A DNA stretch of 64,000 nucleotides from a virus (Duplodnaviria; Heunggongvirae; Uroviricota; Caudoviricetes): IMG/VR virus record IMGVR_UViG_2802429175_000002; one strand, 5' to 3'. The stretch's first letter is position 1. The number at the start of each line of letters is the position of its first letter. Below are positions 24,437 to 53,564 of the stretch, in pieces. A program made the position numbers and the translations under genes. The notes under the pieces are model-generated. The model saw nothing but the letters and a program-made list of their open reading frames with translations. It had not been told where the DNA came from and did no database searches.

Positions 24437-25240
24437 TCAAAGTTGCCCCGTGCGTTTCCAGAAGCTGTAGTGCAGTCCGATGAGAAAGTCGTTCAGTTCG
24501 TTGCGGTCGACGTGATTAGGGAGGGTGGATCGTTCGATGTTGGTCTCGAGGTTCTGGGTGTAGAGATCCAGCCAGGAAGTGACTTTGTCCACCGAGTACC
24601 GGCCCCGGCGCACATTCCGTAGCCACTCCACCTCGAGTGGCCGCATGGGAATACAGATGTCATGATCCCGCATCAGTTCCGTGCCCTGGATAGCCAGACG
24701 GAGAGCGTGGTACGCCATCTTCGTGTCGAAACCGTACTGCTCCACCAGCTCGCGGCGGTTCTTGTGCTTAGACTTGCCCTTCTCGCCGAGCATCCGGGCT
24801 CGCTGAGCCTTTAGGTATCCGTGGAACCTCCACCCAGCATCCTTGGAGAGGAACAGATTCCGGTTGGATACGATCTGTTGGCCTTCTGGGGACTTGTGGT
24901 AGATGGACTTGGGTGGTGCGAACAATGGCAGTAGCACGGTCGGATTACCCTGCGCTGCAAGACGTGCCCACTTGTTCAGTGCGTACGTTGTATGGTCAGT
25001 GTCCCCGTGTTGGCTGCGCACGCCATCTGGAATGCGAGTCCCATCAGCATGCCAGCGATCGGCATACTGCTCGAACTGCTCAAGTCCAAGAACGCATTCC
25101 GGTGGTGGGATACACACGCCCATCTCGTCGTGGTCATCAGTGTTGGCGAGAGTCACACCGTGCAGACCGGATCCAACTTCAGTGAGGAGAATCAGCCCTC
25201 TCGATGCAATCTCCCTATGGCGAGGAGAGTGGTGGCTCAC
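24437..25240 (-). CDS. Pol-beta superfamily nucleotidyltransferase
   Basis: N-terminal GS-x11-DDHDE motif (GSGLHGVTLANTDDHDEM), characteristic of minimal nucleotidyltransferase folds. 267 aa, translationally coupled (ATGA) to the upstream gene. Confidence 0.55.
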   Translation of the reverse strand: MSHHSPRHREIASRGLILLTEVGSGLHGVTLANTDDHDEMGVCIPPPECVLGLEQFEQYADRWHADGTRIPDGVRSQHGDTDHTTYALNKWARLAAQGNPTVLLPLFAPPKSIYHKSPEGQQIVSNRNLFLSKDAGWRFHGYLKAQRARMLGEKGKSKHKNRRELVEQYGFDTKMAYHALRLAIQGTELMRDHDICIPMRPLEVEWLRNVRRGRYSVDKVTSWLDLYTQNLETNIERSTLPNHVDRNELNDFLIGLHYSFWKRTGQL

Positions 25241-28664: not shown

Positions 28665-29188
28665 TGTCTGCGGAACCATCAGCAGAGCTCAGTCTCCATG
28701 GCGAGATCGATGACAAGGTCGCCCGTAAGACCCTGAGCCATCTTCGTGACATCGACATCAATACGCCTGGGCGTCCGATCGATCTGATCATCAACTCACC
28801 CGGTGGGTCCATGGAGCACGGGGACGCCATCTACGACGAGCTCGTGCGGATGTCTGTTGCGGGTGGTGGAGGCCATCACATCACCACTCGCGTGCGCGGT
28901 CGTGCTGCGTCTGCCGCTTCCTTGATCCTCCAGGCTGGTGATAAGCGCCTTGGTGGACGAATGAGCTACATCTACATGCACGAGCCGTTGTCTACGTTCC
29001 ACGACCAGACGATGGCCCAGGTGCGCAACGAGCTCGAGTTCTGTGAGAAGTGGGTGGAGCGATACATCGACGCCCATGACCGCTGCAATATCTCGTACGC
29101 CGAATTCCGTGAACGCATTCGGGATAAAGAGTGGTACCTGGCGATGGATGAGGCTGTGGCACTGGGGATTGTGGATGGTATCGGATGA
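28664..29188 (+). CDS. ClpP-like serine peptidase (S14 family)
   Basis: Motifs INSPGGS...AASAASLILQAG. ATGA overlap with the exonuclease gene. Confidence 0.6.
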   Translation: MSAEPSAELSLHGEIDDKVARKTLSHLRDIDINTPGRPIDLIINSPGGSMEHGDAIYDELVRMSVAGGGGHHITTRVRGRAASAASLILQAGDKRLGGRMSYIYMHEPLSTFHDQTMAQVRNELEFCEKWVERYIDAHDRCNISYAEFRERIRDKEWYLAMDEAVALGIVDGIG

Positions 29189-44898: not shown

Positions 44899-44934
44899 GC
44901 CGAGAGCTCGTGAGATAATGGGTAGAGGAACCCA

Positions 44935-45252: not shown

Positions 45253-45329
45253 AGACAGCAAACACATGCTATCATTAATGTGTAAGCACAGTGTCTGTGC
45301 ATCAAAGACTTTCACGCAAGGACTCTCAA

Positions 45330-45509
45330 ATGGCTAACCAGACCAACAAGCCAGTGGCCGGTACCCCGCAAGCGGATCTCTTCCGCTCGCAGGTGGTTGA
45401 GGCCATTTATGGGTCGGCTGACCGCGACAAGTGGTCACAGGCGAAGGCTCATGGATGGTGGAACGGCACCACTCCCGTCAACGATGGAACTTTCCCGACT
45501 CCGCAGTAA
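45330..45509 (+). CDS. hypothetical protein
   Basis: ATG with an AAGGA ribosome-binding site. 59 aa. Last CDS before the RNA array. Confidence 0.4.
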   Translation: MANQTNKPVAGTPQADLFRSQVVEAIYGSADRDKWSQAKAHGWWNGTTPVNDGTFPTPQ

Positions 45510-45529
45510 GCACTGACTTCTCGGCGTTT

Positions 45530-45568
45530 GGGCCCCGGTTCCTCAGCGGATCGGGGCCCATTTTTATT
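45530..45568 (+). terminator. intrinsic terminator
   Basis: GGGCCCCG...CGGGGCCC stem followed by ATTTTTATT. Confidence 0.6.
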
Positions 45569-45575
45569 CGCTAGA

Positions 45576-45590
45576 GGTTCATGTGGGTGG
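45576..45590 (+). promoter_or_regulatory. conserved motif copy (GGTTCATGTGGGTGG)
   Basis: Lies 8 nt after the terminator and ahead of the tRNA/tmRNA array. Confidence 0.5.
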
Positions 45591-45642
45591 GTCGTAAACT
45601 TAGTTCAGCAAGAGGGGCTACCAGAGCCCAAAACCTGGTGAT

Positions 45643-45713
45643 ATGGGCGTGGTCCAAAGGCAGGACAACGGATTCCAAACCCGTTAGTGGGAGTTCGATT
45701 CTCTCCGCCCGTG
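45643..45713 (+). tRNA. tRNA-Trp (CCA)
   Basis: Acceptor ATGGGCG/CGCCCGT, D-stem GTCC/GGAC, anticodon loop TTCCAAA, T-arm GGGAG-TTCGATT-CTCTC. Hand-folded. Confidence 0.5.
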
Positions 45714-45731
45714 CAATGCCTATGTGTGGCA

Positions 45732-45761
45732 TGACATTTGAAAACTCCATAGAGATATAGT
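45732..45761 (+). promoter_or_regulatory. near-consensus sigma-A-type promoter for the tmRNA
   Basis: -35 TGACAT, 18-nt spacer, -10 TATAGT, about 9 nt upstream of the tmRNA 5' end. Confidence 0.45.
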
Positions 45762-45770
45762 TACTTCAAT

Positions 45771-46161
45771 GGGGCTGACAGGCTTTCGATTGCGAGCCAA
45801 GTCACCAGAGAAGCGTGCCGGGATGCAACGCCCGTAACAGTGCAAACACAATAACTGCAGCTTCTGCTCAGTCCGACTACGCCCTAGCTGCGTAGTTCGG
45901 TGGGGTACAACGGTTCACCCGTTCCGTGTGCCAATCCACCGTCGCCAATACGGGGACCGTCGCTCGGTTGACTAACGGTAGCGGCATACAAATTGCCTTA
46001 GTTCACCCGCCGTGAGGTGTGTAGATCGGCTGTGTACCGTGCGGTATTCCCTTCGAGGGTTTGTCTCGCAGATCGCACGGAATACGAGAAGACTGCGAGC
46101 TACGCACGTAGAGGACTGTGACAAGTCACGTAAGACCCCGGTTCAATTCCGGGCAGCTCCA
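45771..46161 (+). ncRNA. ssrA: tmRNA (ssrA), tag peptide ANTITAASAQSDYALAA
   Basis: 5' GGGGCTGACAGGCTTTCGATTGCG pairs with 3' ...CCCGGTTCAATTCCGGGCAGCTCCA, giving a tRNA-like domain with a G3:U70 pair. The internal tag ORF (45842..45895) ends ...DYALAA-TAG. Confidence 0.7.
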
Positions 46162-46450
46162 CGAGGGGGAGATCCGGGTTCGAGTCCCGGCTGGGTAGCT
46201 AGCAGCTGGCCAGTAGTTCAAGGGCAGAACACCCTCGTTAAACGACGCGTGGCCCCGGCTCGCGATCGACGTCACCACGTCGCGGAAGCGTTTCGGTGGT
46301 GATCAGCCGATTCTACGGGGAATGTGGAGAGACATCTCCGCGCGGCCATGGGGATGCCTGTGGTCACATGGATGACAGGGTAATCCCGCAGTAGGTTCCG
46401 ATAAAAAGGATCCGACCTGAGGTGCCGTACCTGGGCCCTGTTGTCCATCA

Positions 46451-46525
46451 TCTGCTTGTAGGGAAGTTTGGCCATCCCGCCTGGTTTGGGACCAGGAAAC
46501 CGCACGTTCGAATCGTGCCTGGCAG
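46451..46525 (+). tRNA. tRNA-Pro (TGG)
   Basis: Anticodon arm CCTGG-TTTGGGA-CCAGG, T-arm GCACG-TTCGAAT-CGTGC. One acceptor mismatch. Confidence 0.5.
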
Positions 46526-46705
46526 ACTGGTTAGGTTGTCAGTACACCTCCATGAGTAGGGAACTGTTCGTCTGTTCGCGGACGATAGACGTAAATTCGC
46601 GCGCTACGCCCCCCTAGCGTCAACATGGTGGGCTCTACTTGGCTTCAGGCTCTCGTGAGTCTGTGATGCGGTTGCCACGCCGTGCAGGGCCGGAAGGTGG
46701 CGTCT

Positions 46706-46778
46706 TGGCCTGTAGCTCAATTGGTAGAGCAGCGAGCTGTTAACTCGCGAGGTGTAGGTTCGAATCCTTCCAAGCCAG
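46706..46778 (+). tRNA. tRNA-Asn (GTT)
   Basis: D-arm TAGCTCAATTGGTAGAGC, anticodon arm GCGAG-CTGTTAA-CTCGC, T-loop TTCGAAT. Confidence 0.55.
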
Positions 46779-46888
46779 CGTTGGAACGTGGTGCAAGCGT
46801 AGAGCAGCCAAGCGCGACGGCGAGTGGTCAGCACATCGGCAGTCGACGGTCGAAAATGCCAGGGGAAAGCTGGTCGTTCCAAACCTAT

Positions 46889-46965
46889 CTCGTCGCGAAT
46901 AGGCGATCAACGCAGACTGTAAATCTGTTCCTTCGGGTGTGCAGGTTCGACTCCTGACGGCGAGA
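46889..46965 (+). tRNA. tRNA-Tyr (GTA), tentative
   Basis: Anticodon arm GCAGA-CTGTAAA-TCTGT, acceptor CTCGTCG/CGGCGAG, T-loop TTCGACT. The D-arm is atypical. Confidence 0.35.
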
Positions 46966-47040
46966 CAACTTCGTTGGTTGGCCGGGGCAAATGTCAACTG
47001 GGTGGCGACCCGATCGGATGCATACGGTCAAACCGCTCTT

Positions 47041-47112
47041 TGAAGATTGGTGTAACGGCAACACACGACGCTCTGAACGTCGCAGTTCTTGGTTCGAATC
47101 CAGGGTCTTCAG
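47041..47112 (+). tRNA. tRNA-Gln (CTG)
   Basis: Acceptor TGAAGAT/GTCTTCA, anticodon arm CGACG-CTCTGAA-CGTCG, T-arm CTTGG-TTCGAAT-CCAGG. Confidence 0.55.
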
Positions 47113-47194
47113 CTTTTGGGTCAACCGGTAGGTACCTGCCATGAGTTGACTGTCCGGTGGCTCGCATGCCCTCCGTCACAGAAGCATGCCGTAT

Positions 47195-47280
47195 GGAAGG
47201 CTCCGCTGAGTTGGTCGGCAACTGGCTTCGAAACCCAGGGGGCGCATCGTGTCGCAGGGGTTCGACTCCTCAGCTTTCCG
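47195..47280 (+). tRNA. tRNA-Ser (CGA), class II
   Basis: 86 nt. Anticodon loop TTCGAAA, long variable arm, T-loop TTCGACT, acceptor GGAAGGC/GCTTTCC. Confidence 0.45.
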
Positions 47281-47358
47281 CTCTAAGACTTCCACCTGCC
47301 TGAACGGTGGCTGAACAGGTGCACTGAAGATCGCGTCGGTGCTGAAATGGTGGACCAT

Positions 47359-47441
47359 GGAGAGCGCAACTAGTTAGGTGACTAGGCCTGGTTGCTAACC
47401 GGAGCGCTGTTCGCAGTAGGTTTCGAATACCTGCCTCTCCG
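47359..47441 (+). tRNA. tRNA-Ser (GCT), class II
   Basis: 83 nt. Anticodon loop TTGCTAA, variable arm GCG-CTGTT-CGC, T-loop TTCGAAT. Confidence 0.45.
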
Positions 47442-47968
47442 CGTTGCGGCGCTACCCCGCAGCCCTGAAAAGGGACTATGTGCTGTATAAGTGCACTGGG
47501 AAACCAGAGGTAGCACCCACACGAACTCTGTTGTGGGAGATATAGTTGAGACATTCGGGGCATGGCCCATAAGCCACCGCAAGGTGGTGAAAGGTGGGGT
47601 GACAACCCACCACCCGCAAGGGCAATCCATGCAATCCAATCCTCAAGCAGTCAGAGATGGCTGCCAGTGGTCGAGCTACGCGCAAGAGTCCAGGGCCGTG
47701 AACCGGTGGGACGCACCATCCCGTACGTGCGGGTGAAAGCGCTATTGGGCAAGCACACTGTGGAACGGAAGGAACTGAGTCCGAGCCTCGCAAGCAAGGG
47801 CGTGTTCCATGGAGACCATGGGTTGGGACGACGGTTCCATATCGGGTCAAAGAGTGTCGGTAGCCCAGCCAGGCCAAAGCACAAGAGGCGTGAAGCATTC
47901 TGTGCCCTAAAAGGGTTCGGAACTTCATGGGGAAGCACGTCTCTAGTCAAATCATTCTCCGCTGCGAG
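47442..47968 (+). ncRNA. candidate structured non-coding RNA (GNRA-tetraloop-rich) inside the tRNA array
   Basis: About 525 nt with no convincing ORF. It has multiple hairpins capped by GCAA/GCGA loops (CCACCGCAAGGTGG, CCCGCAAGGG, GTGGGGTGACAACCCAC). Confidence 0.35.
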
Positions 47969-48040
47969 AATGACGTAGACCAACGGAAGGTCACCAGTTA
48001 TTGGAAACTGGATGTGCGGGTTCGAGTCCCGTCGTCAATA
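47969..48040 (+). tRNA. atypical tRNA-like gene with an 8-nt anticodon loop
   Basis: Good acceptor, D-arm (GACC/GGTC) and T-arm (GCGGG-TTCGAGT-CCCGT). The anticodon stem CCAGT/ACTGG encloses TATTGGAA, which is 8 nt. Confidence 0.35.
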
Positions 48041-48334
48041 AAAAGCAAAAGTCCTTCCCCTGCCGAGGAGCAAAAGCGCCTTAATCCCAGACCCTCGGGA
48101 ATCTGGGCCGCACAATAGTCCCGCAAGGTGAGTGCGGTTTGTAGGCAAGTACTGCAGCAGTGAGACGGCCATCTCATCGCGAAGGGAAAGCCGCAGAGTA
48201 GCTTTCGGCATGACGAGTGGTTCACGGTAACGGACCAGGCGTGAGAACTAGGTCAGGGATGGCCTGGAGAAGCAGCGAATCAATAATGCTGCGAAAGGTT
48301 CTCGATAGCGGGTGTACTCTCAGCCTCTAACAAT
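48041..48334 (+). ncRNA. second candidate structured non-coding RNA in the tRNA array
   Basis: About 290 nt between tRNA genes, with several GNRA-capped hairpins (CCCGCAAGG, TCGCGAAGGG, CTGCGAAAGG) and no plausible ORF. Confidence 0.3.
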
Positions 48335-48408
48335 CGACTCTTAGCTCAGTTAGGTAAGAGCGACCGGTTGAAGCCCGGTGCGCCCCCGTTCGATTCGGGG
48401 AGAGTCGG
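48335..48408 (+). tRNA. tRNA-Phe (GAA)
   Basis: Perfect acceptor CGACTCT/AGAGTCG, D-arm GCTC...GAGC, anticodon arm ACCGG-TTGAAGC-CCGGT, T-arm CCCCG-TTCGATT-CGGGG. Confidence 0.7.
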
Positions 48409-48529
48409 CGTGTAAGGGAAACCAGGTTCCGCAGCTACTGGTGAAAAGCTGGGCACTCCACGTAAAAGGTCGCGTTGACTCGCGCGGATACGGTAGGCGA
48501 AGAACTGTCCTGCCGGAATGAGTCCTCAT

Positions 48530-48604
48530 GTCGGGGTAGAGAAGTTCGGCCATCTCGCTGTCCTCATAAGTCAGAGACCGTGGGTTCGAATCCCACCCCC
48601 GCCA
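48530..48604 (+). tRNA. tRNA-Met (CAT)
   Basis: Anticodon loop CTCATAA, T-arm GTGGG-TTCGAAT-CCCAC, D-stem GAGA/TCTC. Confidence 0.45.
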
Positions 48605-48663
48605 CGCAAAACCAGGGGCACCTGGTTGGGCCCGCCGCAGCCCAGCGCCAATGCGGCTCCAAT

Positions 48664-48738
48664 CCCGTTGTTGGGCAATGGAGCGCCCACCGCCCTACGA
48701 AGGCGCAACGCATGCAGGTTCGAATCCTGTCAACGGGT
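48664..48738 (+). tRNA. tRNA-Arg (ACG)
   Basis: Perfect acceptor CCCGTTG/CAACGGG, anticodon loop CTACGAA, T-loop TTCGAAT. Confidence 0.5.
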
Positions 48739-48802
48739 CTTAGCGCTGCCGGTACAAAGCCCGAAGAAACAGAGATGCCATGCTGCTCTGGCCAGCGCCA
48801 TA

Positions 48803-48873
48803 CCTTGTGTAGCTCAATGGAAGAGCCCCTCGCTGTGACCGAGGTTATCGCGGTTCAACTCCGCGCATAGGGA
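48803..48873 (+). tRNA. tRNA-His (GTG)
   Basis: D-arm TAGCTCAATGGAAGAGC, anticodon arm CCTCG-CTGTGAC-CGAGG, T-arm CGCGG-TTCAACT-CCGCG. Confidence 0.55.
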
Positions 48874-48897
48874 CGTACAGACACTGAAAGGCTTGAC

Positions 48898-49074
48898 ATG
48901 GTTGCAAAGCTGCGCGCGGGTATTGCCCACGCTGACATCGTCACTGCGGTAAACGCATTGATCGACGGCCTGGACGAGTTCCAGGATGTTCTCGACGATC
49001 TTCGCGAGAAGGTGGAGGAGAAGGTCGTAGCCAAGAAGGCACCGGCCAAGAAGGCAACTGCCGCCGCAGAGTAG
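48898..49074 (+). CDS. small hypothetical protein (58 aa) embedded in the tRNA array
   Basis: ATG with a GAAAGG ribosome-binding site. Product MVAKLRAGIAHADIVTAVNALIDGLDEFQDVLDDLREKVEEKVVAKKAPAKKATAAAE is helical with a Lys/Ala-rich tail. Below the ORF-track cutoff. Confidence 0.4.
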   Translation: MVAKLRAGIAHADIVTAVNALIDGLDEFQDVLDDLREKVEEKVVAKKAPAKKATAAAE

Positions 49075-49098
49075 CGGCCTCATCTATAATCGATAGAC

Positions 49099-49189
49099 GG
49101 TGTGTCTCTCGGCGAGAGGGCGGTTCGAGTCCGCAGCGTGAGGTTCTCACGTCATGGGCCCCTGGCAGGTTCGATTCCTGCGCACACCA
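49099..49189 (+). tRNA. atypical 91-nt tRNA-like gene (identity unresolved)
   Basis: 7-bp acceptor GGTGTGT/GCACACC with discriminator A, and a 3' T-arm GCAGG-TTCGATT-CCTGC. The interior holds a second TTCGAGT hairpin and extra hairpins. Preceded by a TATAAT box at 49085. Confidence 0.3.
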
Positions 49190-49194
49190 CCTAT

Positions 49195-49266
49195 GGCGAA
49201 GTGAGTGAGTGGCTAGCTGGCAGGCTGCAACCCTGACCCACGCCGGTTCGATCCCGGCCTTCGTCT
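49195..49266 (+). tRNA. tRNA-Cys (GCA)
   Basis: Acceptor GGCGAAG/CTTCGTC, anticodon loop CTGCAAC, T-arm GCCGG-TTCGATC-CCGGC. Confidence 0.45.
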
Positions 49267-49323
49267 CGACGCGCTCGGTGAGTAGGAGTCACCGTAAAGC
49301 CGACGCGGCAATATCGGCACTAA

Positions 49324-49398
49324 GCTCCAATAGCCCAACATGGCAGAGGCGACAGGCTTAGACCCTGTGCGGTGGGGGTTCGAATCCCTCTTGGAGTA
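49324..49398 (+). tRNA. class-I-shaped tRNA with Leu anticodon (TAG)
   Basis: Anticodon arm ACAGG-CTTAGAC-CCTGT, 5-nt variable loop, 3-bp D-stem with a 12-nt loop, discriminator A. Confidence 0.4.
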
Positions 49399-49465
49399 CG
49401 CATCCTGAGGCCGGTGGCAACTGGTAAGGGGATCCGCAGCCACAGCGGTCCCGCCTCAGGACTCT

Positions 49466-49540
49466 GGTCGGCTAGGCAAACCTGGCAAAGCCGCCGAGCT
49501 CAAACCTCGGTGTCTGCGAGTTCGATCCTCGCGCCGACTA
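49466..49540 (+). tRNA. class-I-shaped tRNA with Leu anticodon (CAA)
   Basis: All 75 nt are accounted for. Anticodon arm CCGAG-CTCAAAC-CTCGG, 5-nt variable loop TGTCT, T-arm GCGAG-TTCGATC-CTCGC, discriminator A. Confidence 0.45.
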
Positions 49541-49541
49541 C

Positions 49542-49613
49542 TGGGCGTTGGTGAAACGGCATCACCCTAGACTTTTAATCTACGAGTTGAGGGTTCAAAT
49601 CCCTTGCGCCCTA
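49542..49613 (+). tRNA. tRNA-Lys (TTT)
   Basis: D-stem GTGA/TCAC, anticodon loop CTTTTAA, T-arm GAGGG-TTCAAAT-CCCTT. Confidence 0.45.
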
Positions 49614-49614
49614 A

Positions 49615-49686
49615 GGGAGTATAGTTAAGCGGTTATAACTCTTGGCTCTTACCCATGAATCCCAGGTTCGACCCCTGGTGCTCCCA
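49615..49686 (+). tRNA. tRNA-Lys (CTT)
   Basis: Acceptor GGGAGTA/TGCTCCC, D-stem GTTA/TAAC, anticodon loop CTCTTAC, T-arm CCAGG-TTCGACC-CCTGG. Confidence 0.45.
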
Positions 49687-49687
49687 C

Positions 49688-49759
49688 TGGTTCGTCATCC
49701 AATGGTGAGGATACCGTTCTGATAAGACGGCAATCACAGTTCAATTCTGTGCGAACCTA
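49688..49759 (+). tRNA. tRNA-Ile (GAT)
   Basis: D-stem ATCC/GGAT, anticodon arm CCGTT-CTGATAA-GACGG, T-arm CACAG-TTCAATT-CTGTG. Confidence 0.5.
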
Positions 49760-49763
49760 CCAA

Positions 49764-49830
49764 GCGGTAGTTCCGGAAAGTGCGTGGCCTCCTAAGCCGC
49801 TGCAAGGGTGTTCGAGTCACCTCTACCGCT
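49764..49830 (+). tRNA. tRNA-Arg (CCT), short D-arm
   Basis: Perfect acceptor GCGGTAG/CTACCGC, anticodon arm GTGGC-CTCCTAA-GCCGC, T-loop TTCGAGT. Only 67 nt. Confidence 0.4.
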
Positions 49831-49833
49831 CCA

Positions 49834-49909
49834 AGCGAGTGTGATGTTTTAACGGTTTAGCATCCCTGTCTTCCAAACAGGTCGTGCCAGTTCGAATCTG
49901 GTCACTCGT
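49834..49909 (+). tRNA. tRNA-Gly (TCC)
   Basis: Anticodon arm CCTGT-CTTCCAA-ACAGG, T-arm GCCAG-TTCGAAT-CTGGT, acceptor GCGAGTG/CACTCGT. Confidence 0.45.
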
Positions 49910-50035
49910 TCGACGCCCTGAGATGGGCGACCCTCCAGTGGAGACTGCGGTTGTCGCTGGAAGTTTGGCGCGGATAGGGCATCCGCCAGGGACCTCTCGC
50001 TGCAGCATTGGCACCCTCAACCAAAAGCCCAATAT

Positions 50036-50103
50036 GCCTGGTTAGTCTGGGACGAAAGCTGGCTTACATCCAGCTAAGCGGGGTTCGATTCCTCGACTGG
50101 GTA
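50036..50103 (+). tRNA. tRNA-Val (TAC), reduced D-arm
   Basis: Anticodon arm GCTGG-CTTACAT-CCAGC, T-arm CGGGG-TTCGATT-CCTCG. Acceptor has G-U pairs. 68 nt. Confidence 0.4.
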
Positions 50104-50177
50104 CGTAGCGGGAAGGATCGGTTCGATACCGAGCCAGTTTCGGCTGGATAGTGTAGAGGAATGCACACCCGCGCCAG

Positions 50178-50251
50178 GCCTCATTAGCTCATCCGGCTAG
50201 AGCACTTCCTTAGTAACGAAGAGGCGCGGGGTTCGAGACCTCGATGAGGCC
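50178..50251 (+). tRNA. tRNA with AGT anticodon (Thr-like), tentative
   Basis: Perfect acceptor GCCTCAT/ATGAGGC, D-arm GCTC...GAGC, anticodon loop TTAGTAA, T-arm CGGGG-TTCGAGA-CCTCG. Confidence 0.4.
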
Positions 50252-50343
50252 CTATGTTCAGTCTGCGGCCATGTTCAGGAATCCTGAACAGCTACGTGGA
50301 TTGAACACAAGTTCAGACCCAGTCTTGTCAAAACGGGGACCAT

Positions 50344-50417
50344 GGGGGCGCATGTTCCAAGGTGGCGACCGATCCTTGCAAGATTGGTGTGGTCGCGTTC
50401 AATTCGCACCGTCTCCA
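50344..50417 (+). tRNA. tRNA-Ala (TGC)
   Basis: Anticodon arm CGATC-CTTGCAA-GATTG, acceptor GGGGGCG/CGTCTCC with a G3:U70 pair, discriminator A, T-loop TTCAATT. Confidence 0.4.
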
Positions 50418-50524
50418 CGGGAGTTTTGGCCAAGCAGCTCCAGGGTTTGATTCCCAGAAAGTTGGCTCAGGTTGTTCGTACCTGCCCCGGTGGCCTCGAA
50501 AACCACTGGGGGTAAACGTCCAAT

Positions 50525-50598
50525 CGAGTCGTAGCTTAGTGGACTAAAGCACTGCCCTGTCACGGCAGGGGACGCGGGTTCAAATCCCGTCGACTTGA
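50525..50598 (+). tRNA. tRNA-Asp (GTC)
   Basis: D-stem GCTT/AAGC, anticodon arm CTGCC-CTGTCAC-GGCAG, T-arm GCGGG-TTCAAAT-CCCGT. Confidence 0.6.
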
Positions 50599-50599
50599 C

Positions 50600-50938
50600 G
50601 TGAGTAGAGAACGAGTACTGTCTGTAACCCTCGCGGATTGTCGTGTTGACACATTCCGGTCTGGGGGCAAGGGCGGTCAAAACCAGAACAAGCGCGAGAC
50701 AGGTGTGCGGATTACCCACGAACCGTCCGGTGCTGTGGGTGAGTCGCGCGAGGAGCGTAGCCAGCTGCAGAACAAGCAGGCTGCGTTCAAGCGTATGGCG
50801 AGCTCGCCCAAGTTCCAGCTATGGGTGAAACGTCAGGTGGGTCGCGAAGACCTACAGCGTGCCCAGGTAGAGCGTGATATGTGGCCGGTGAACCTCAAGA
50901 CTGAGGTCCGCGAATCCGGCAAGTGGGTTGAGCAATAA
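50600..50938 (+). CDS. arfB: ArfB-like peptidyl-tRNA hydrolase (release-factor GGQ domain)
   Basis: GTG start directly after tRNA-Asp. GGQ motif RSGGKGGQNQNKRETGVRITHEPSG with a basic C-terminal tail. Confidence 0.6.
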   Translation: MSRERVLSVTLADCRVDTFRSGGKGGQNQNKRETGVRITHEPSGAVGESREERSQLQNKQAAFKRMASSPKFQLWVKRQVGREDLQRAQVERDMWPVNLKTEVRESGKWVEQ

Positions 50939-50943
50939 CCCTA

Positions 50944-51014
50944 AGGTCCATTGGTGTAGTGAGAGCACACCACCCTCTCAAGGTGTTGGTGCGGGTTTGA
51001 TTCCCGCATGGACT
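50944..51014 (+). tRNA. tRNA-Glu (CTC)
   Basis: Acceptor GGTCCAT/ATGGACT, anticodon loop CTCTCAA, T-arm GCGGG-TTTGATT-CCCGC. Confidence 0.5.
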
Positions 51015-51019
51015 ACTCG

Positions 51020-51052
51020 AAAGGCCCTCAGCGAAAGCTGGGGGCCTTTTTC
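51020..51052 (+). terminator. intrinsic terminator closing the RNA array
   Basis: AGGCCC...GGGCCT stem followed by TTTTTCG. Confidence 0.55.
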
Positions 51053-51066
51053 GTACCCACATGAAC
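51053..51066 (-). promoter_or_regulatory. conserved motif copy, reverse orientation (TACCCACATGAACC)
   Basis: Lies immediately after the terminator that closes the RNA array. Its ATG opens an 11-codon ORF (MNPSALNTIGT). Confidence 0.5.
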
Positions 51067-51091
51067 CCTAGTGCCCTCAATACCATTGGTA

Positions 51092-51202
51092 CATGAAGGA
51101 ATTTAGGAAGTACTTGAGCATCACGATCTTCGCGCTGAGCGTCGTTGACTTCGTGGCGTCGGTAGTGGAGTTGGTCGAGAACATCAAGTTGGAGCGTCAG
51201 GC
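51092..51202 (+). CDS. small hydrophobic peptide (37 aa), tentative
   Basis: Product MKEFRKYLSITIFALSVVDFVASVVELVENIKLERQA. Its stop overlaps the next ATG. Confidence 0.3.
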
Positions 51203-51502
51203 ATGACATCGAATCCCTATGACTTCGAGCAGATTACAACTGTCACGCCGGAAATGATCTGGTTCGCGCGCGACATCATGTGGCGCGGAATTTCTTCCGG
51301 CCCATCTAGTCCAGGGACGGGACGGATCCAAGAGGTCGTGCGCTGGCTCGAAGAGCGTGCTGAGGCTTACCGGGCGCTTGAAGAGCGGGAAGCAGTCGAG
51401 AAGGCCTTCATCAACGCCGTGGAAGAAGAGGCCGGACAGGGCCGGACGTATCCAGGCGCGATTCGGAAGGTTCTCTCTACCTACAAGCTGGAGAAGCTAT
51501 GA
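51203..51502 (+). CDS. hypothetical protein
   Basis: 99-aa ORF. Confidence 0.5.
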   Translation: MTSNPYDFEQITTVTPEMIWFARDIMWRGISSGPSSPGTGRIQEVVRWLEERAEAYRALEEREAVEKAFINAVEEEAGQGRTYPGAIRKVLSTYKLEKL

Positions 51503-51609
51503 AGCGCCTGGACGATTGGGCTTGGTACGTGTCACTCGCCATGGGTGGGTTCGTGATCATCCTGGTCCTGATCTTCCCGGTTCTGATGGAGCTGAGGTGG
51601 GGGCATTGA
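51499..51609 (+). CDS. small membrane peptide (36 aa), tentative
   Basis: ATGA overlap with the upstream gene. Product MKRLDDWAWYVSLAMGGFVIILVLIFPVLMELRWGH. Confidence 0.3.
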   Translation: MKRLDDWAWYVSLAMGGFVIILVLIFPVLMELRWGH

Positions 51610-51899
51610 GCCAGATCGAGCTGGAAGAATTCCCGAAGCTTCCAGAGGGTTACCGATGGCGAGTCCGTTACAAGCCAAGTTCATTCATGGTTGACCTTGA
51701 CGAGGTGAAGGTGTCGATCAAGCGTGGATGGCTCACTGTCGTGAGTGAGAACACCTTCCCGAGCATTCACAATCATAGTTTGCGGGACGCTGCGCTCTGG
51801 GCGGCACAGCGGGCATGGTCCGAATGGAAGTCCCCATCCTTACATGACCAAGCTGCGGCGATCCAGGCCGAGCTCAACTCGGGAGTACTGACCCCGTGA
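51597..51899 (+). CDS. hypothetical protein
   Basis: In-frame GTG at 51597 or TTG at 51606. The ORF continues in the 51357 frame to 51899. Confidence 0.4.
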   Translation: MGALSQIELEEFPKLPEGYRWRVRYKPSSFMVDLDEVKVSIKRGWLTVVSENTFPSIHNHSLRDAALWAAQRAWSEWKSPSLHDQAAAIQAELNSGVLTP

Positions 51900-52405
51900 C
51901 TCGCCGTGTTCTTGTCACCGGCAGCCGTGACTGGCCTGACCCGAAGCCGGTTGTCTGCGCGCTCAATAGCCAGTGGCTCAAGGCGCACAGGAAGGGTGAG
52001 AAGCTCGTCGTTGTGCAGGGGGAGTGCCCTACGGGTGCTGATCTTTTCGCTGCCGAGTGGGCCCAGTTCCGCGAGGATCGCGGCTTCCGCGTCAAGAATG
52101 AGTCGCACCCCGCAGATTGGAATCGGGACTGCGACCACCACTGCACTCATCCACCTCGGTGGAAGTGGGGTAAGTCGTACTGCCCACTGGCTGGGCACAT
52201 GCGAAACCAGGCGATGGTAGATCTCGGTGCTGATATGTGTATCGCATTCCCGTTGAAGGACTCTCGCGGTACGTGGGACTGCATGAAGCGCGCAAAGAAG
52301 GCCGGAATGTCCGTGATCAACTTCGGATACGACGGGCCCCTGTGCTCTCCGTCGATCGATTATCACGTTGAGCCACATACCGGTCCGTGTGTTCGTGCCC
52401 GCTGA
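51896..52405 (+). CDS. SLOG/DUF2493-like Rossmann-fold protein with Cys/His-rich insert
   Basis: Motifs VLVTGSRDW and VVVQGECPTGADLFAAEWA resemble the YspA/DprA-like SLOG fold. Tentative. Confidence 0.4.
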   Translation: MTRRVLVTGSRDWPDPKPVVCALNSQWLKAHRKGEKLVVVQGECPTGADLFAAEWAQFREDRGFRVKNESHPADWNRDCDHHCTHPPRWKWGKSYCPLAGHMRNQAMVDLGADMCIAFPLKDSRGTWDCMKRAKKAGMSVINFGYDGPLCSPSIDYHVEPHTGPCVRAR

Positions 52406-52524
52406 ACCGTTCTGGTTTGAGAAGTATCCCGCCATCCCCGGCAAGGGATACCGCGACTCTGCTTGCGATTACGACCCGATGACCGTCTATGAGGGCGCCC
52501 AAATCATGGGAGAGGTGAACAACG

Positions 52525-52878
52525 ATGAGTGAACTGAAGCAAATGATCGTCATGCGTAAGGATCTCGGCATGCCTGCCGGGAAGATGGTCGCGCAGGGTG
52601 CTCACGCCTCAATGGGCGCGGTGCTTGAGTACCGCGATGACCCACGGGTCGTTGAGTGGCTAGCTGGTTCGTTCACGAAGGTCTGCGTGCGGGTGGAAGG
52701 CGAAGATGCGCTGATTGAGCTTTGGCACAAGGCAATTGATGCGAAGCTTCCAACGTCCCTCATCACGGATAGCGGAAAGACTGTTTTCCATGGTGTTTTG
52801 ACGACCACGTGTTGCGCTATTGGACCTGCAACGGCTGAAGAACTCGCTCCGATCACGGGGGAGTTGAAGCTACTGTGA
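52525..52878 (+). CDS. Pth2-family peptidyl-tRNA hydrolase-like protein
   Basis: The N-terminus MIVMRKDLGMPAGKMVAQGAHASMGAV matches the PTH2 signature (RxDLxMxxGKxxAQxxHA). Confidence 0.5.
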   Translation: MSELKQMIVMRKDLGMPAGKMVAQGAHASMGAVLEYRDDPRVVEWLAGSFTKVCVRVEGEDALIELWHKAIDAKLPTSLITDSGKTVFHGVLTTTCCAIGPATAEELAPITGELKLL

Positions 52879-53564
52879 CCACATACTGGTTCAACCGCAA
52901 CCCAGTGGTCATTGGACCTCAGGCGTATTCGGAGCCTCCTGGCTTGATCGAGGGAACGCCAAACCTGCGCCGCGCCAGCCTGTCCAACGCGGTGCTATTC
53001 GGTGGCCCATTTCTGCGTCAGCTCCTGCAGTCGGCTCCAATTGTTGGGGACCACAAGCACATCACGGTGGACACGAAGGTGTCGATGCTGATGCCCGGTT
53101 GGTGGCCAGCGATTCCCGGGTGGCATACCGATGGAGTGCCACGCTACAGCGTGACAGACAAGACTGTGACCCCGGCGAATTGGGGCATGCCGTCCCTTCC
53201 GCTGCAGAATGATCGGTCCCTTGAGGGCTATTACCCGCGCTACCACACTCTGCATGTCGGAAACGACTGCCCAACTGTGTTCATTGATGGCCTGATGCAC
53301 TTGCCAATTGAGCACGACGAAGACGAGCAGATGTACTCGGAGATGACACGCCGGATTGACGGATGCACCACTCTGCGGAAACTGATTGCGCAAGAGGCTG
53401 TTTGGTATTCGTGGGACTGGTGGAACATTCACCAGGCTTCGCAAGCCACTGAACGTGGTTGGCGCCTGCTAATCCGCATTACGGAATCAGACATGGCCCC
53501 AGTGGATTCGGACTTTATCCGACCACAGAACCAAGTCTACGTACCGAAGGAGTTCGGCTGGTGA
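52875..53564 (+). CDS. 2OG-Fe(II) oxygenase-like protein (tentative)
   Basis: WHTDG (HxD) with downstream His residues. 229 aa. Confidence 0.35.
   Translation: MTTYWFNRNPVVIGPQAYSEPPGLIEGTPNLRRASLSNAVLFGGPFLRQLLQSAPIVGDHKHITVDTKVSMLMPGWWPAIPGWHTDGVPRYSVTDKTVTPANWGMPSLPLQNDRSLEGYYPRYHTLHVGNDCPTVFIDGLMHLPIEHDEDEQMYSEMTRRIDGCTTLRKLIAQEAVWYSWDWWNIHQASQATERGWRLLIRITESDMAPVDSDFIRPQNQVYVPKEFGW

What the first reader, a model, noticed from the sequence alone, without database searches (positions are those of the whole stretch)
45643..52878. Phage-encoded translation-rescue toolkit: tmRNA with a DYALAA-ending tag, about 27 tRNAs, an ArfB-like GGQ hydrolase and a Pth2-like hydrolase
A single 5.5-kb rightward array carries a tmRNA at 45771..46161 with a tRNA-like domain (G3:U70) and the tag ORF ANTITAASAQSDYALAA-TAG. 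It sits under a near-consensus promoter (TGACAT-18-TATAGT). About 27 tRNA genes follow, covering most amino acids. An ArfB/YaeJ-like gene with an intact GGQ motif (50600..50938) sits between tRNA-Asp and tRNA-Glu. About 1.5 kb downstream is a Pth2-family peptidyl-tRNA hydrolase-like gene (52525..52878). No tRNA gene encodes its 3' CCA. Having tmRNA, ArfB and Pth2 together in a temperate siphovirus suggests the phage actively manages ribosome stalling during infection. The tag ending matches the actinobacterial (mycobacterial-type) DYALAA degron, which is consistent with the inferred host.
Basis: partly seen in the sequence, partly recalled or inferred. Interest (0 to 1): 0.6.

Follow-up and report, generated by a model that had tools for sequence, protein, structure and literature searches.

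The report
Mycobacterial prophage tRNA, tmRNA, rescue-factor array
This is the tRNA/tmRNA gene array of a temperate Mycobacterium abscessus-type phage, with a small release-factor-like protein and a Pth2 hydrolase; the same array is already published for sister prophages, so it is real but ordinary, and the "ArfB-like" label is wrong.

Summary
The core observation holds. Rfam scores a standard one-piece tmRNA at 45771-46164 (95 bits, threshold 47). The 50600-50938 protein has an RF-1 GGQ domain. The 52525-52878 protein is a full-length Pth2.

Several details are wrong:
- The tag is 12 residues (AASAQSDYALAA), not 17.
- Only 19 canonical tRNAs plus one aberrant one pass thresholds. About six more are marginal.
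- tRNA-Ile does encode CCA.
- The promoter fails a standard scan.
- The GGQ protein is not ArfB. It is release-factor domain 3 plus helix alpha-7, an RF2-type switch-loop tryptophan and a small beta-hairpin, with no basic tail.

The window is about 85-91% identical to MabI/cluster M prophages of M. abscessus (prophiGD54-2, prophiT49-2). Their GenBank records annotate the tmRNA, the tRNAs, the "RF-1 release factor" and (in prophiT49-2) the peptidyl-tRNA hydrolase. The combination was described by Morgado & Vicente 2018 and Dedrick et al. 2021.

Verdict: a new member of a known kind, low interest. The one open thread is the uncharacterised phage "mini release factor" family.

The parts
45529..45560 (+). 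Intrinsic-terminator-like hairpin (13 bp, then TTTTTATT) that closes the upstream protein-coding block just before the RNA array
45643..45714 (+). tRNA-Trp (CCA anticodon)
   Evidence: 54.6 bits
45771..46164 (+). tmRNA, standard one-piece form, acceptor stem with G3:U70, 3' end ...CUCCA-CGA (no encoded CCA)
   Evidence: Rfam RF00023 95.1 bits against gathering score 47; ARAGORN at 95% threshold; sequence
45857..45895 (+). tmRNA tag reading frame: GCA resume codon, AASAQSDYALAA, TAG stop
   Evidence: same column in relatives
46165..46245 (+). Conserved tRNA-like module directly 3' of the tmRNA: T-arm, closed acceptor-like hairpin and D-arm-like hairpin inside a basal stem. Status unknown
   Evidence: covarying pairs in 9 prophages; single-sequence fold; YrlA model only 28 bits against gathering score 69, and not recovered in relatives
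46452..46527 (+). tRNA-Pro (UGG)
   Evidence: 53.6 bits
46706..46779 (+). tRNA-Asn (GUU)
46889..46966 (+). Marginal tRNA-Tyr (GUA), weak D-arm; a tRNA-Tyr is annotated in prophiT49-2
   Evidence: ARAGORN at 90% threshold only
47041..47113 (+). tRNA-Gln (CUG)
47195..47281 (+). Marginal long-arm tRNA-Ser (CGA)
   Evidence: ARAGORN at 90% threshold; Rfam tRNA-Sec model 26 bits, below threshold
47359..47442 (+). Marginal tRNA-Ser (GCU)-like element, invariant in three prophages
   Evidence: ARAGORN at 80% threshold only; alignment
47551..48326 (+). GOLLD RNA. The conserved 3' core is 47883-48326; the probable 5' domain starts near 47551, where homology to cluster M phages begins
   Evidence: Rfam RF02032 193.1 bits against gathering score 150; also in prophiGD54-2, prophiT49-2, PegLeg and Nanosmite; homology boundaries
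47969..48040 (+). tRNA-like element nested in the GOLLD variable linker, with an abnormal anticodon loop (ARAGORN 'tg'). Annotated tRNA-OTHER in relatives; a paper calls the equivalent element in M. aubagnense a pseudo-tRNA
   Evidence: PMC6582537
48335..48409 (+). tRNA-Phe (GAA)
48530..48605 (+). tRNA-Met (CAU)
48664..48739 (+). tRNA-Arg (ACG)
   Evidence: 43.4 bits
48803..48874 (+). tRNA-His (GUG)
48898..49074 (+). 58-aa ORF inside the array; a hypothetical protein is annotated at the same place in relatives. No family match
49099..49191 (+). Odd 93-nt tRNA-like element with a 7-bp acceptor stem and two T-loop motifs; not a canonical tRNA
49195..49267 (+). tRNA-Cys (GCA)
49324..49399 (+). 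tRNA-Leu (UAG)
49466..49541 (+). tRNA-Leu (CAA)
49542..49613 (+). tRNA-Lys (UUU)
49615..49687 (+). tRNA-Lys (CUU)
49688..49762 (+). tRNA-Ile (GAU); the only tRNA here with an encoded 3' CCA
49762..49832 (+). Marginal tRNA-Arg (CCU); Nanosmite has a tRNA-Arg(cct) annotated between Ile and Gly
   Evidence: ARAGORN at 80% threshold only
49835..49911 (+). tRNA-Gly (UCC), low score
   Evidence: 30.4 bits
50036..50104 (+). tRNA-Val (UAC), low score
   Evidence: 31.7 bits
50178..50252 (+). tRNA-Thr (AGU)
50344..50418 (+). Marginal tRNA-Ala (UGC) with G3:U70 and a weak T-arm; a tRNA-Ala(tgc) is annotated in relatives
   Evidence: ARAGORN at 90% threshold
50525..50599 (+). tRNA-Asp (GUC)
   Evidence: 65.5 bits
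50600..50938 (+). 112-aa GGQ 'mini release factor': RF domain 3, helix alpha-7, RF2-type switch-loop Trp and a C-terminal beta-hairpin. The GTG start is 1 nt after tRNA-Asp; the stop is 6 nt before tRNA-Glu
   Evidence: Pfam RF-1 68 bits; PHROG 3122 over the full length, E 2.5e-60
50945..51016 (+). tRNA-Glu (CUC)
51203..51502 (+). 99-aa ORF with no family match; absent from prophiGD54-2, present in three IMG/VR relatives
51516..51614 (+). Remnant of RtcB RNA ligase: only codons 1-33 remain (82% identity). Relatives carry the full gene (about 410-440 codons) here
51896..52405 (+). YspA/SLOG-family protein (annotated 'DprA-like' in prophiGD54-2)
   Evidence: Pfam PF10686 43 bits
52525..52878 (+). 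Pth2-type peptidyl-tRNA hydrolase, 117 aa
   Evidence: Pfam PF01981 104 bits over the full length; TIGR00283 92.6 against 82; M. jannaschii Pth2 (2zv3) E 3e-22, with the GK...Q and DxGxT motifs kept
28670..29185 (+). ClpP-like protease elsewhere in the same prophage; a possible partner for tagged proteins (inference only)
24440..25240 (-). RlaP, an RNA-repair-pathway polymerase-beta-family nucleotidyltransferase, elsewhere in the prophage
   Evidence: Pfam PF10127 106 bits
55292..56689 (-). Large serine integrase (temperate lifestyle)
   Evidence: Pfam Resolvase, Recombinase and Zn_ribbon_recom

Best explanation
WHAT IT IS
The region is the rightward RNA-gene array of a MabI/cluster M-type temperate siphophage of the Mycobacterium (Mycobacteroides) abscessus group.

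SHOWN
The array encodes:
- 19 canonical tRNAs, with up to six more marginal ones;
- a complete one-piece tmRNA;
- a GOLLD RNA;
- a 112-residue GGQ protein that is a cut-down class I release factor, with no codon-reading domain;
- a Pth2 hydrolase, downstream.

INFERRED MECHANISM
1. During lytic growth the array is transcribed as one or a few precursors. Host RNase P, RNase Z and the CCA-adding enzyme then cut and finish them.
2. The tRNAs form a broad replacement set. They can read 33 codons, which account for 58% of codon use in this window's predicted ORFs. This keeps phage translation going when host tRNAs are limiting, cleaved or poorly matched.
3. Host AlaRS charges the phage tmRNA through G3:U70. 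With host SmpB and EF-Tu it rescues non-stop ribosomes and adds AASAQSDYALAA, a tag close enough to the host tag for Clp proteases to recognise.
4. Processing of the flanking tRNA-Asp and tRNA-Glu releases the GGQ protein's mRNA as an almost leaderless message. The protein hydrolyses peptidyl-tRNA on ribosomes without reading a codon. It probably docks its RF2-like switch loop at the decoding centre.
5. Pth2 hydrolyses peptidyl-tRNA that has dropped off ribosomes and so recycles tRNA.

Together these keep ribosomes and tRNAs available to the phage.
For: - Identity: 87-91% megablast identity over 57-62% of the 45500-53000 query to prophiGD54-2, prophiT49-2 and prophi86-1, with the same gene order. 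The rest of the window is collinear with the same prophages. A serine integrase is present.
- tmRNA. The tag is 9/12 identical to the M. tuberculosis ssrA tag.
- tRNAs. The set has roughly one tRNA per amino acid and includes readers of the most used codons (AAG, GAG, CAG, TTC, ATC, GAC). It covers 58% of codon use, or 70% with the marginal genes.
- GGQ protein: full-length member of a conserved family of about 112 residues, with more than 1,500 hits at E<=1e-5. GGQ, W75, E102, G107 and W109 are invariant. It matches PHROG 3122. The AlphaFold model (pLDDT 84.7) shows a GGQ domain, a 24-residue helix and a beta-hairpin. The best fold matches are ribosome-bound RF2 and RF1. hhalign places W95 on the RF2 switch-loop Trp and NLKTEV on QIRSYV.
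- Pth2.
- Co-occurrence: six of seven close IMG/VR relatives carry tmRNA, about 20 tRNAs, the GGQ protein and Pth2 within 8 kb.
- No SmpB is annotated in 36-79 kb of prophiGD54-2, the part that covers the early-gene region. This fits dependence on host SmpB.
- Published readings of sister elements agree (PMC8092301; PMC5966550).
Against: - Nothing here shows expression, processing, charging or catalysis.
- No promoter passes the consensus scan. ARAGORN at default settings misses the tmRNA.
- Several tRNA-like genes look degenerate. RtcB has been lost from this copy. So parts of the module are dispensable or decaying.
- The GGQ family is not tied to tRNA arrays. Only 27 of 80 viral loci have 5 or more tRNAs within 10 kb, and only 9 have a tmRNA.
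- How a GGQ protein with no codon-reading domain and no ArfB tail would pick stalled ribosomes over translating ones is unknown.
- The host genome was not available. Codon mismatch and the host's own tRNA set and ssrA could not be compared directly.
Confidence: 0.8

Rival explanations
1. Counter-defence and RNA-damage reading. The module exists mainly to survive host attacks on the translation apparatus, such as anticodon nucleases and the VapC- and MazF-type toxins that are abundant in mycobacteria. Phage tRNAs replace cleaved host tRNAs. RtcB and RlaP repair cut RNAs. The tmRNA, GGQ protein and Pth2 clear the ribosomes that jam as a result. This refines the best explanation rather than excluding it.
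For: - Relatives place an RtcB ligase 70-800 nt after the tRNA-Glu that follows the GGQ gene, or that occupies its position.
- The window keeps an RlaP 'RNA repair pathway' nucleotidyltransferase.
- The GGQ domain scores 54.6 bits on the PrfH model. The PrfH-RtcB pairing is interpreted as ribosome rescue coupled to RNA repair (PMC6514570).
- The tRNA set is broad, not limited to rare codons.
Against: - RtcB is deleted in this window and in at least three IMG/VR relatives, so repair is not essential to the module.
- The GGQ protein lacks PrfH's codon-recognition-like domain.
- No tRNase-resistance feature of the tRNAs was tested.
Confidence: 0.35
2. Codon-usage compensation only. The tRNAs adapt a phage of about 58% GC to a more GC-rich host. 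The tmRNA, GGQ protein and Pth2 are passengers moved in by HNH-endonuclease-driven mosaicism and have no coordinated role.
For: - Window GC is 0.51-0.64 per kb and GC3 is 0.67.
- Several tRNAs read A/U-ending codons (UUG, CUA, AAA, GUA, GGA, CCA).
- HNH genes flank or interrupt these arrays.
- Array content varies between relatives.
Against: - The set also covers the commonest codons.
- The tmRNA follows tRNA-Trp at the head of the array in all eleven arrays checked, from PegLeg and Nanosmite to the MabI prophages.
- The GGQ protein and Pth2 co-occur in six of seven close relatives.
Confidence: 0.2
3. The phage tmRNA works as a decoy or re-router, not a rescuer. It titrates host SmpB, or it swaps the host tag for one with different residues at positions 2, 4 and 6, and so changes which proteins are degraded during infection or lysogeny.
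For: - A tRNA-like-domain-only tmRNA in phage DS6A has been proposed to inhibit by titrating SmpB (PMC4131195).
- The tag differs from the host-type tag at three internal positions.
- Some mycobacterial prophages use ssrA-like -AA ends on repressors and integrases (PMC8092301).
Against: - This tmRNA is full length, with an intact resume context, reading frame and stop.
- The C-terminal DYALAA degron is unchanged.
Confidence: 0.07

Closest known systems
MabI prophages of M. abscessus (prophiGD54-2 MW584202, prophiT49-2 OQ417962, prophi86-1 MW584160) and cluster M mycobacteriophages (PegLeg, Bongo, Rey, Nanosmite)
   Same: - Same gene order: HNH, tRNA-Trp, tmRNA, tRNAs, GOLLD, tRNAs, tRNA-Asp, RF-1 protein, tRNA-Glu, then downstream genes including Pth2 (in prophiT49-2).
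- 87-91% nucleotide identity to the MabI prophages over 57-62% of the query.
- 12-residue tags ending in DYALAA or DYVLAA.
- Serine integrase.
- Described in PMC8092301 and PMC5966550.
   Different: - This copy has lost RtcB, keeping only 33 codons.
- It has gained a 99-aa ORF.
- Its tmRNA middle region is longer (394 nt against 353-368 in the MabI prophages and Nanosmite; PegLeg's is 403).
- Some of its tRNAs (Tyr, Ala) score worse than in relatives.
ArfB / YaeJ / ICT1 (codon-independent GGQ rescue factors)
   Same: A small stand-alone protein with a GGQ peptidyl-hydrolase domain and no codon-recognition domain. It would have to act independently of any codon.
   Different: - No basic C-terminal tail. 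Residues 71-112 have a net charge of +2 and are predicted to form a helix plus a beta-hairpin. An ArfB-type tail from locus L099 carries +12.
- ArfB model: 26 bits against a cut-off of 100.
- PDB ArfB chains align only to profile positions 14-38.
- ArfB is absent from the top 50 fold matches.
Class I release factors RF1/RF2 (domain 3, helix alpha-7, switch loop) and PrfH
   Same: - These give the best sequence, profile and fold matches.
- The alignment runs from the GGQ domain through alpha-7 to the RF2 switch-loop Trp and the first domain-4 strand.
- As with PrfH, relatives have an RtcB ligase close by.
   Different: - Domain 1 and the codon-reading domains 2/4 (PxT/SPF) are absent. The protein is 112 residues, against about 360 for RF1/RF2 and about 200 for PrfH.
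- It scores far below the equivalog cut-offs: 70 against 370 (prfB) and 55 against 167 (PrfH).
Archaeal/eukaryotic Pth2 (PTRH2/Bit1)
   Same: Full-length match to Pfam, to the TIGR00283 equivalog and to solved Pth2 structures. The conserved Lys and Asp-x-Gly-x-Thr motifs are retained.
   Different: It is phage-encoded in a bacterium whose own essential enzyme is of the unrelated Pth1 type (general knowledge). It scores below the NF003314 cut-off (104 against 126).
GOLLD RNA in Mycobacterium tRNA arrays
   Same: It passes the Rfam threshold, lies inside a phage tRNA array and carries a nested pseudo-tRNA, as reported for M. aubagnense, M. abscessus M24 and M. conceptionense (PMC6582537; Morgado et al. 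2020, cited in PMC12286853).
   Different: Nothing material. It is simply not annotated in the GenBank records of the relatives.

Membership tests
tmRNA (Rfam RF00023) | Covariance-model score at or above the gathering threshold over the whole model | tested here: met
   95.1 bits against 47, model positions 1-374. The permuted-tmRNA model scores only 24-29 bits against 47.
tmRNA (Rfam RF00023) | tRNA-like domain: acceptor stem with G3:U70 and a T-arm | tested here: met
   GGGGCUG/CAGCUCC-A with G3:U70; T-arm CCCGG-UUCAAUU-CCGGG.
tmRNA (Rfam RF00023) | Tag frame that starts at an Ala resume codon after an A-rich leader and ends in a hydrophobic degron plus a stop | tested here: met
   AAUAACU-GCA...; AASAQSDYALAA-UAG.
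tmRNA (Rfam RF00023) | Works with SmpB, AlaRS and EF-Tu | not testable with these tools
   No SmpB is annotated in 36-79 kb of prophiGD54-2. Host factors are presumed.
ArfB / YaeJ | GGQ catalytic motif | tested here: met
   GGKGGQ at residues 22-27; invariant in 33 homologues.
ArfB / YaeJ | Family model (NCBIfam NF006718) at or above its cut-off | tested here: not met
   26 bits against 100, residues 6-40 only. PDB ArfB chains: E 5e-4, profile positions 14-38 only.
ArfB / YaeJ | Flexible linker plus a strongly basic C-terminal tail that probes the empty mRNA channel | tested here: not met
   The C-terminus is a confident helix (70-93) plus a beta-hairpin (102-111). Net charge is +2. It aligns to RF2 alpha-7 and the switch loop. 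Contrast the ArfB-type tail from L099.
Class I release factor RF1/RF2 | Domain 3 with GGQ | tested here: met
   Pfam RF-1 68 bits; PDB RF1/RF2 E about 1e-13; Foldseek top hits.
Class I release factor RF1/RF2 | Codon-recognition superdomain 2/4 (PxT or SPF) and domain 1 | tested here: not met
   The protein has 112 residues. Matches cover only RF2 residues 237-330. Equivalog scores are 63-70 against cut-offs of 370-423.
PrfH (RtcB-associated release factor H) | Equivalog model TIGR03072 at or above its cut-off; retains a codon-recognition-like domain | tested here: not met
   54.6 bits against 166.65, matching only PrfH positions 106-179.
PrfH (RtcB-associated release factor H) | Operon partner RtcB | tested here: inconclusive
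   Full RtcB lies 200-500 nt downstream in prophiGD54-2, prophiT49-2 and three IMG/VR relatives. Only 33 codons are left in this window.
Pth2 (PF01981 / TIGR00283) | Full-length family match above the curated cut-offs | tested here: met
   Pfam 104 against 23, positions 1-115 of 115. TIGR00283 92.6 against 82. NF003314 104 against 126, which is below its cut-off.
Pth2 (PF01981 / TIGR00283) | Conserved active-site Lys and Asp (Sulfolobus Lys18/Asp86, from memory of the literature) | tested here: met
   In the alignment to M. jannaschii Pth2 (2zv3), GKMVAQG and DSGKT are aligned to GKMVAQG and DAGHT. The residue roles are recalled, not tested.
Pth2 (PF01981 / TIGR00283) | Hydrolyses free peptidyl-tRNA | not testable with these tools
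   Needs an enzyme assay or complementation.
GOLLD RNA (RF02032) | Covariance-model score at or above the gathering threshold; phage or tRNA-island context | tested here: met
   193.1 bits against 150; 192-216 bits in four relatives.
YrlA (Y RNA-like, RF02553) | Covariance-model score at or above the gathering threshold; an adjacent Ro60 (TROVE) gene | tested here: not met
   28.3 bits against 69 at 46148-46256. No hit in three related loci. No Ro60 is annotated in 36-79 kb of prophiGD54-2.

The most novel reading that the evidence does not exclude
The 112-residue GGQ protein (PHROG 3122; more than 1,500 homologues, in cluster C, M and V mycobacteriophages and in many uncultured viral contigs) may be a distinct, uncharacterised class of codon-independent 'mini release factor'.

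It consists of RF domain 3, helix alpha-7, an RF2-type switch-loop tryptophan and a two-strand remnant of domain 4. On this reading it docks at the decoding centre through the switch loop, not through an ArfB-style tail in the mRNA channel. It may release peptides from ribosomes whose A site is vacant or damaged.

In this lineage it would be made from a leaderless mRNA that tRNA processing excises from between tRNA-Asp and tRNA-Glu.

I found no paper that characterises it. The release-factor survey PMC6514570 does not mention phages at all.
Probability: 0.3. Interest if true: 0.55.

Novelty: new member of a known kind. Interest (0 to 1): 0.25.

Why it matters
As found, it adds little. It is one more MabI/cluster M-type prophage with the published tRNA, tmRNA, GOLLD, RF-1 and Pth2 array.

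Two things have practical value:
- Annotation should be corrected. The GGQ protein should not be called ArfB. GOLLD is missing from the GenBank records of all the relatives examined.
- The GGQ mini-factor family is large, conserved over its full length and untested. It offers a natural minimal release factor for asking how a GGQ domain can be aimed at ribosomes without reading a codon.

M. abscessus prophages also matter for phage therapy, so knowing which translation functions they bring could help explain host range.

Tried and rejected
- ArfB assignment: rejected.
- PrfH membership: rejected on domain content and score. The RtcB link was kept as a lead.
- 17-residue tag: rejected in favour of 12 residues.
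- Permuted (two-piece) tmRNA: rejected. ARAGORN's 'p' flag appeared only at a lowered threshold. The gene has normal 5' and 3' tRNA domains, and the permuted Rfam model is below threshold.
- Dedicated near-consensus promoter for the tmRNA: not supported.
- The 11-mer GAGATATAGTT occurs only twice in 64 kb, before the tmRNA and before the GOLLD 5' domain. However, 4 of 100 shuffles do as well, and the first copy varies among relatives. It is left as a curiosity.
- YrlA identity for the tRNA-like module after the tmRNA: below threshold and not reproduced in relatives.
It gave no host or distribution information. Its only use was to supply RF2 and ArfB comparators.
- Pope et al. 2014 (PMC3958112) and Morgado et al. 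2020 (PMC7549688) are not held, so I could not read their descriptions.
- Host codon usage, the host tRNA set and the host ssrA could not be obtained. The tag comparison therefore rests on the published M. tuberculosis tag.

Full report
WHAT IS THERE

ARAGORN finds 20 tRNA genes, all on the + strand, between 45643 and 51016. Rfam at gathering thresholds finds three things:
- a tmRNA at 45771-46164 (95.1 bits, threshold 47, whole model);
- 18 tRNAs;

A more permissive Rfam run raises the tRNA count to 20 at or above 29 bits. One of these, at 47969-48040, lies inside the GOLLD linker and has an abnormal anticodon loop.

Lowering ARAGORN's threshold to 90% recovers the tmRNA and four more tRNA-like genes: Tyr-GUA, Ser-CGA, Ala-UGC and an odd 93-nt element. 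At 80% it adds Ser-GCU and Arg-CCU.

A fair count is 19 canonical tRNAs for 17 amino acids, one aberrant nested element, and up to six marginal genes. The marginal genes would complete the set of 20 amino acids.

THE tmRNA

It is a standard one-piece molecule. ARAGORN places the 5' tRNA domain at 1-28 and the 3' tRNA domain at 355-392. The permuted-tmRNA model is below threshold.

The acceptor stem GGGGCUG/CAGCUCC has G3:U70, and the 3' end reads ...CUCCA-CGA, so CCA is not encoded.

The Rfam alignment puts the resume codon at the GCA of AAUAACU-GCA. This gives AASAQSDYALAA followed by UAG, at 45857-45895.

Sister prophages have 12-residue tags at the same alignment column: AASAQSDYALAA, ANAHQSDYALAA and ANAHQSDYVLAA.

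The published M. tuberculosis tag is AADSHQRDYALAA (PMC4416901). Dropping its leading alanine, which is the residue carried by tmRNA itself, the phage tag matches the template-encoded ADSHQRDYALAA at 9 of 12 positions, including the whole DYALAA end.

SMALLER CLAIMS

- tRNA-Ile (49688-49762) does end in A-CCA, so 'no tRNA encodes CCA' is nearly right but not fully.
- TGACAT-18-TATAGT is literally present. In the proper register the -35 is ATGACA and the spacer is 19 nt.
- The consensus scan finds no promoter in 44900-53600.
- The last T of the -10 is an A in 5 of 10 related loci compared, and the cluster M phages have unrelated sequence there.
- What all eleven arrays, this window included, share is TTCAA(T) immediately before GGGG. 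This fits co-transcription with tRNA-Trp and RNase P processing (inference).
- A strong terminator-like hairpin at 45529-45560 separates the array from the upstream genes.

THE GGQ PROTEIN (50600-50938)

Pfam RF-1 matches at 68 bits, but only over residues 8-70.

NCBIfam ranks the models as follows:
- RF2: 70 bits;
- RF1: 63-65 bits;
- PrfH: 55 bits;
- ArfB: 26 bits against a cut-off of 100, over residues 6-40 only.

Against PDB sequences, RF1 and RF2 score about 1e-13, PrfH scores 5e-8, and ArfB does not appear at E<=0.01. With a family profile, ArfB chains align only to positions 14-38, whereas E. coli RF2 aligns over 237-330.

The family is large and conserved over its full length:
- 1,595 hits at E<=1e-5, and the top 120 are all 97-142 residues long;
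- GGQ, W75, E102, G107 and W109 are invariant in 33 sampled members;
- it corresponds to PHROG 3122, 'RF-1 domain peptide chain release factor'.

An AlphaFold model (pLDDT 84.7) shows the GGQ domain, a helix at 70-93 and a beta-hairpin at 102-111. Foldseek's best PDB matches are ribosome-bound RF2 and RF1. PrfH ranks 35th, C12orf65 ranks 48-49th, and ArfB is not in the top 50.

hhalign against a canonical RF2 aligns VERDMWPVNLKTEVR with KSKMKIEWGSQIRSYVF. This puts W95 on the RF2 switch-loop tryptophan and the next strand on the first domain-4 strand.

An ArfB-type protein recovered by chance (L099) shares the GGQ domain but then has a tail with net charge +12. The phage protein's last 42 residues have a net charge of +2.

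The protein is therefore a truncated class I release factor, not an ArfB. It works like ArfB only in the loose sense that it cannot read a codon.

The ORF starts 1 nt after tRNA-Asp and stops 6 nt before tRNA-Glu, as it does in prophiGD54-2. tRNA processing would then leave an essentially leaderless mRNA. That is an inference. Leaderless translation being common in mycobacteria is general knowledge.

Pth2 (52525-52878)

- It matches Pfam PTH2 over the full length (104 bits).
- It passes TIGR00283 (92.6 against 82).
- It matches M. jannaschii Pth2 (2zv3) at E 3e-22, with GKMVAQG and DxGxT conserved.
- prophiT49-2 annotates its homologue as peptidyl tRNA hydrolase.

WHOSE GENOME THIS IS

The array is 87-91% identical, over 57-62% of the 45500-53000 query, to the M. 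abscessus prophages prophiGD54-2, prophiT49-2 and prophi86-1. It is more distantly related to cluster M phages. The first 25 kb of the window are collinear with the same prophages, from the tape-measure gene onward.

A large serine integrase lies at 55292-56689. 'Temperate siphovirus' is therefore right.

The GenBank records of these relatives already annotate the tmRNA with its tag, 21-26 tRNAs, an 'RF-1 peptide chain release factor' between tRNA-Asp and tRNA-Glu, an RtcB-like ligase and, in prophiT49-2, the Pth2. PegLeg also has tRNA-Trp, then a tmRNA, then GOLLD.

The literature covers the same ground:
- Dedrick et al. [quoted passage not shown]
- Morgado & Vicente 2018 report tmRNA, RF-1, Pth and a structured RNA of about 430 nt in these 'G1' arrays (PMC5966550).
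- GOLLD with a nested pseudo-tRNA in mycobacterial arrays is published (PMC6582537; Morgado et al. 2020, cited).
- Phage tmRNAs have been catalogued since the Bxz1 era (PMC4131195).

HOW TIGHTLY THE PARTS ARE LINKED

I examined 80 IMG/VR loci that encode the mini-factor.
- Seven are MabI-like. Six of these have the tmRNA, about 20 tRNAs, the mini-factor and Pth2 within 8 kb.
- Across all 80, only 27 have 5 or more tRNAs within 10 kb, and only 9 have a tmRNA.

The four-part set is thus a trait of this lineage, not an obligate system.

This window has lost RtcB. Only codons 1-33 survive, at 51516-51614, and several IMG/VR relatives show a similar loss. Elsewhere the prophage keeps an RlaP RNA-repair nucleotidyltransferase and a ClpP-like protease.

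The 19 secure tRNAs can read 33 codons, which make up 58% of codon use in 67 predicted window ORFs (70% with the marginal genes). These include the most used codons. That looks more like a general replacement set than a rare-codon supplement.

MECHANISM AND CONFIDENCE

What is shown:
- the identities of the RNAs and proteins;
- their order;
- their conservation.

What is inferred:
- lytic-phase transcription and processing by host RNase P, RNase Z and the CCA-adding enzyme;
- alanylation of the tmRNA through G3:U70 and its use of host SmpB (none is annotated in 36-79 kb of prophiGD54-2);
- Clp-dependent degradation of tagged proteins;
- codon-independent peptide release by the mini-factor;
- tRNA recycling by Pth2.

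The main open question is purpose: replacement after host RNA damage, codon matching, or both. I could not test this without the host genome.

VERDICT

The system is a new sequence-level member of a kind that is already annotated and published. Interest is low. The residual interest lies in the untested mini release factor family.

Noticed in passing
window 47551-48326 (Rfam core 47883-48326; nested tRNA-like 47969-48040): A GOLLD RNA sits inside the tRNA array and carries a nested tRNA-like element with an abnormal anticodon loop. It is not annotated in the GenBank records of prophiGD54-2, prophiT49-2, PegLeg or Nanosmite, where the inner element is called tRNA-OTHER or the region is labelled a hypothetical protein. 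It is known from the literature. Homology to cluster M phages begins near 47551, which suggests a 5' domain of about 330 nt upstream of the Rfam model.
   Followed up: partly
window 46165-46451: The 290-nt spacer between the tmRNA and tRNA-Pro is more conserved than the middle of the tmRNA itself. Its first 80 nt fold as a T-arm, a closed acceptor-like hairpin and a D-arm-like hairpin inside a stem, with covarying pairs across nine prophages. This is a permuted tRNA-like module. It gives a sub-threshold YrlA hit (28 bits against 69) in this window only, and no Ro60 gene is annotated in the relative. The last 150 nt are almost invariant. Function unknown.
   Followed up: partly
window 51516-51614: Only the first 33 codons of the RtcB RNA ligase remain. 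The rest of the gene, present in prophiGD54-2, prophiT49-2, PegLeg and Nanosmite, is replaced by about 280 nt of unrelated sequence. Several IMG/VR relatives (L005, L008, L009) show a similar loss.
   Followed up: yes
window 24440-25240 (-) and 28670-29185 (+): The same prophage encodes an RlaP 'RNA repair pathway' nucleotidyltransferase (Pfam 106 bits) and a ClpP-like protease (Pfam 77 bits). Both could belong to a wider RNA-repair and protein-quality-control theme alongside the tmRNA.
   Followed up: partly
window 49099-49191: A 93-nt tRNA-like element with a perfect 7-bp acceptor stem, two T-loop motifs and extra hairpins. ARAGORN calls it tRNA-Ala(cgc) only at a lowered threshold. There is no room for it in prophiGD54-2, which has only 9 nt between the preceding ORF and tRNA-Cys.
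   Followed up: partly
window 50599-50945: The mini release factor ORF is packed exactly between two tRNAs. Its GTG start is 1 nt after tRNA-Asp and its stop is 6 nt before tRNA-Glu. This implies that the mRNA is produced by tRNA processing, with almost no leader or trailer.
   Followed up: no
window 45752-45762 and 47537-47547: The 11-mer GAGATATAGTT occurs only twice in the 64-kb window: 9 nt upstream of the tmRNA, and just upstream of where GOLLD homology begins. Four of 100 shuffles give two or more matches. The first copy varies among relatives and the second is almost invariant.
   Followed up: partly
window 45529-45560: A strong intrinsic-terminator-like hairpin (13 bp, 9 of them G-C, then TTTTTATT) lies immediately upstream of tRNA-Trp. 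It marks the start of a separate transcription unit for the RNA array.
   Followed up: no
locus L099 (Gemmatimonadetes MAG), ORF around 10001: A 164-codon ORF whose GGQ domain is 57% identical to the phage mini-factor but which ends in a strongly basic ArfB-type tail. GGQ-domain similarity alone therefore cannot separate ArfB-like proteins from this family; the C-terminal extension can.
   Followed up: partly
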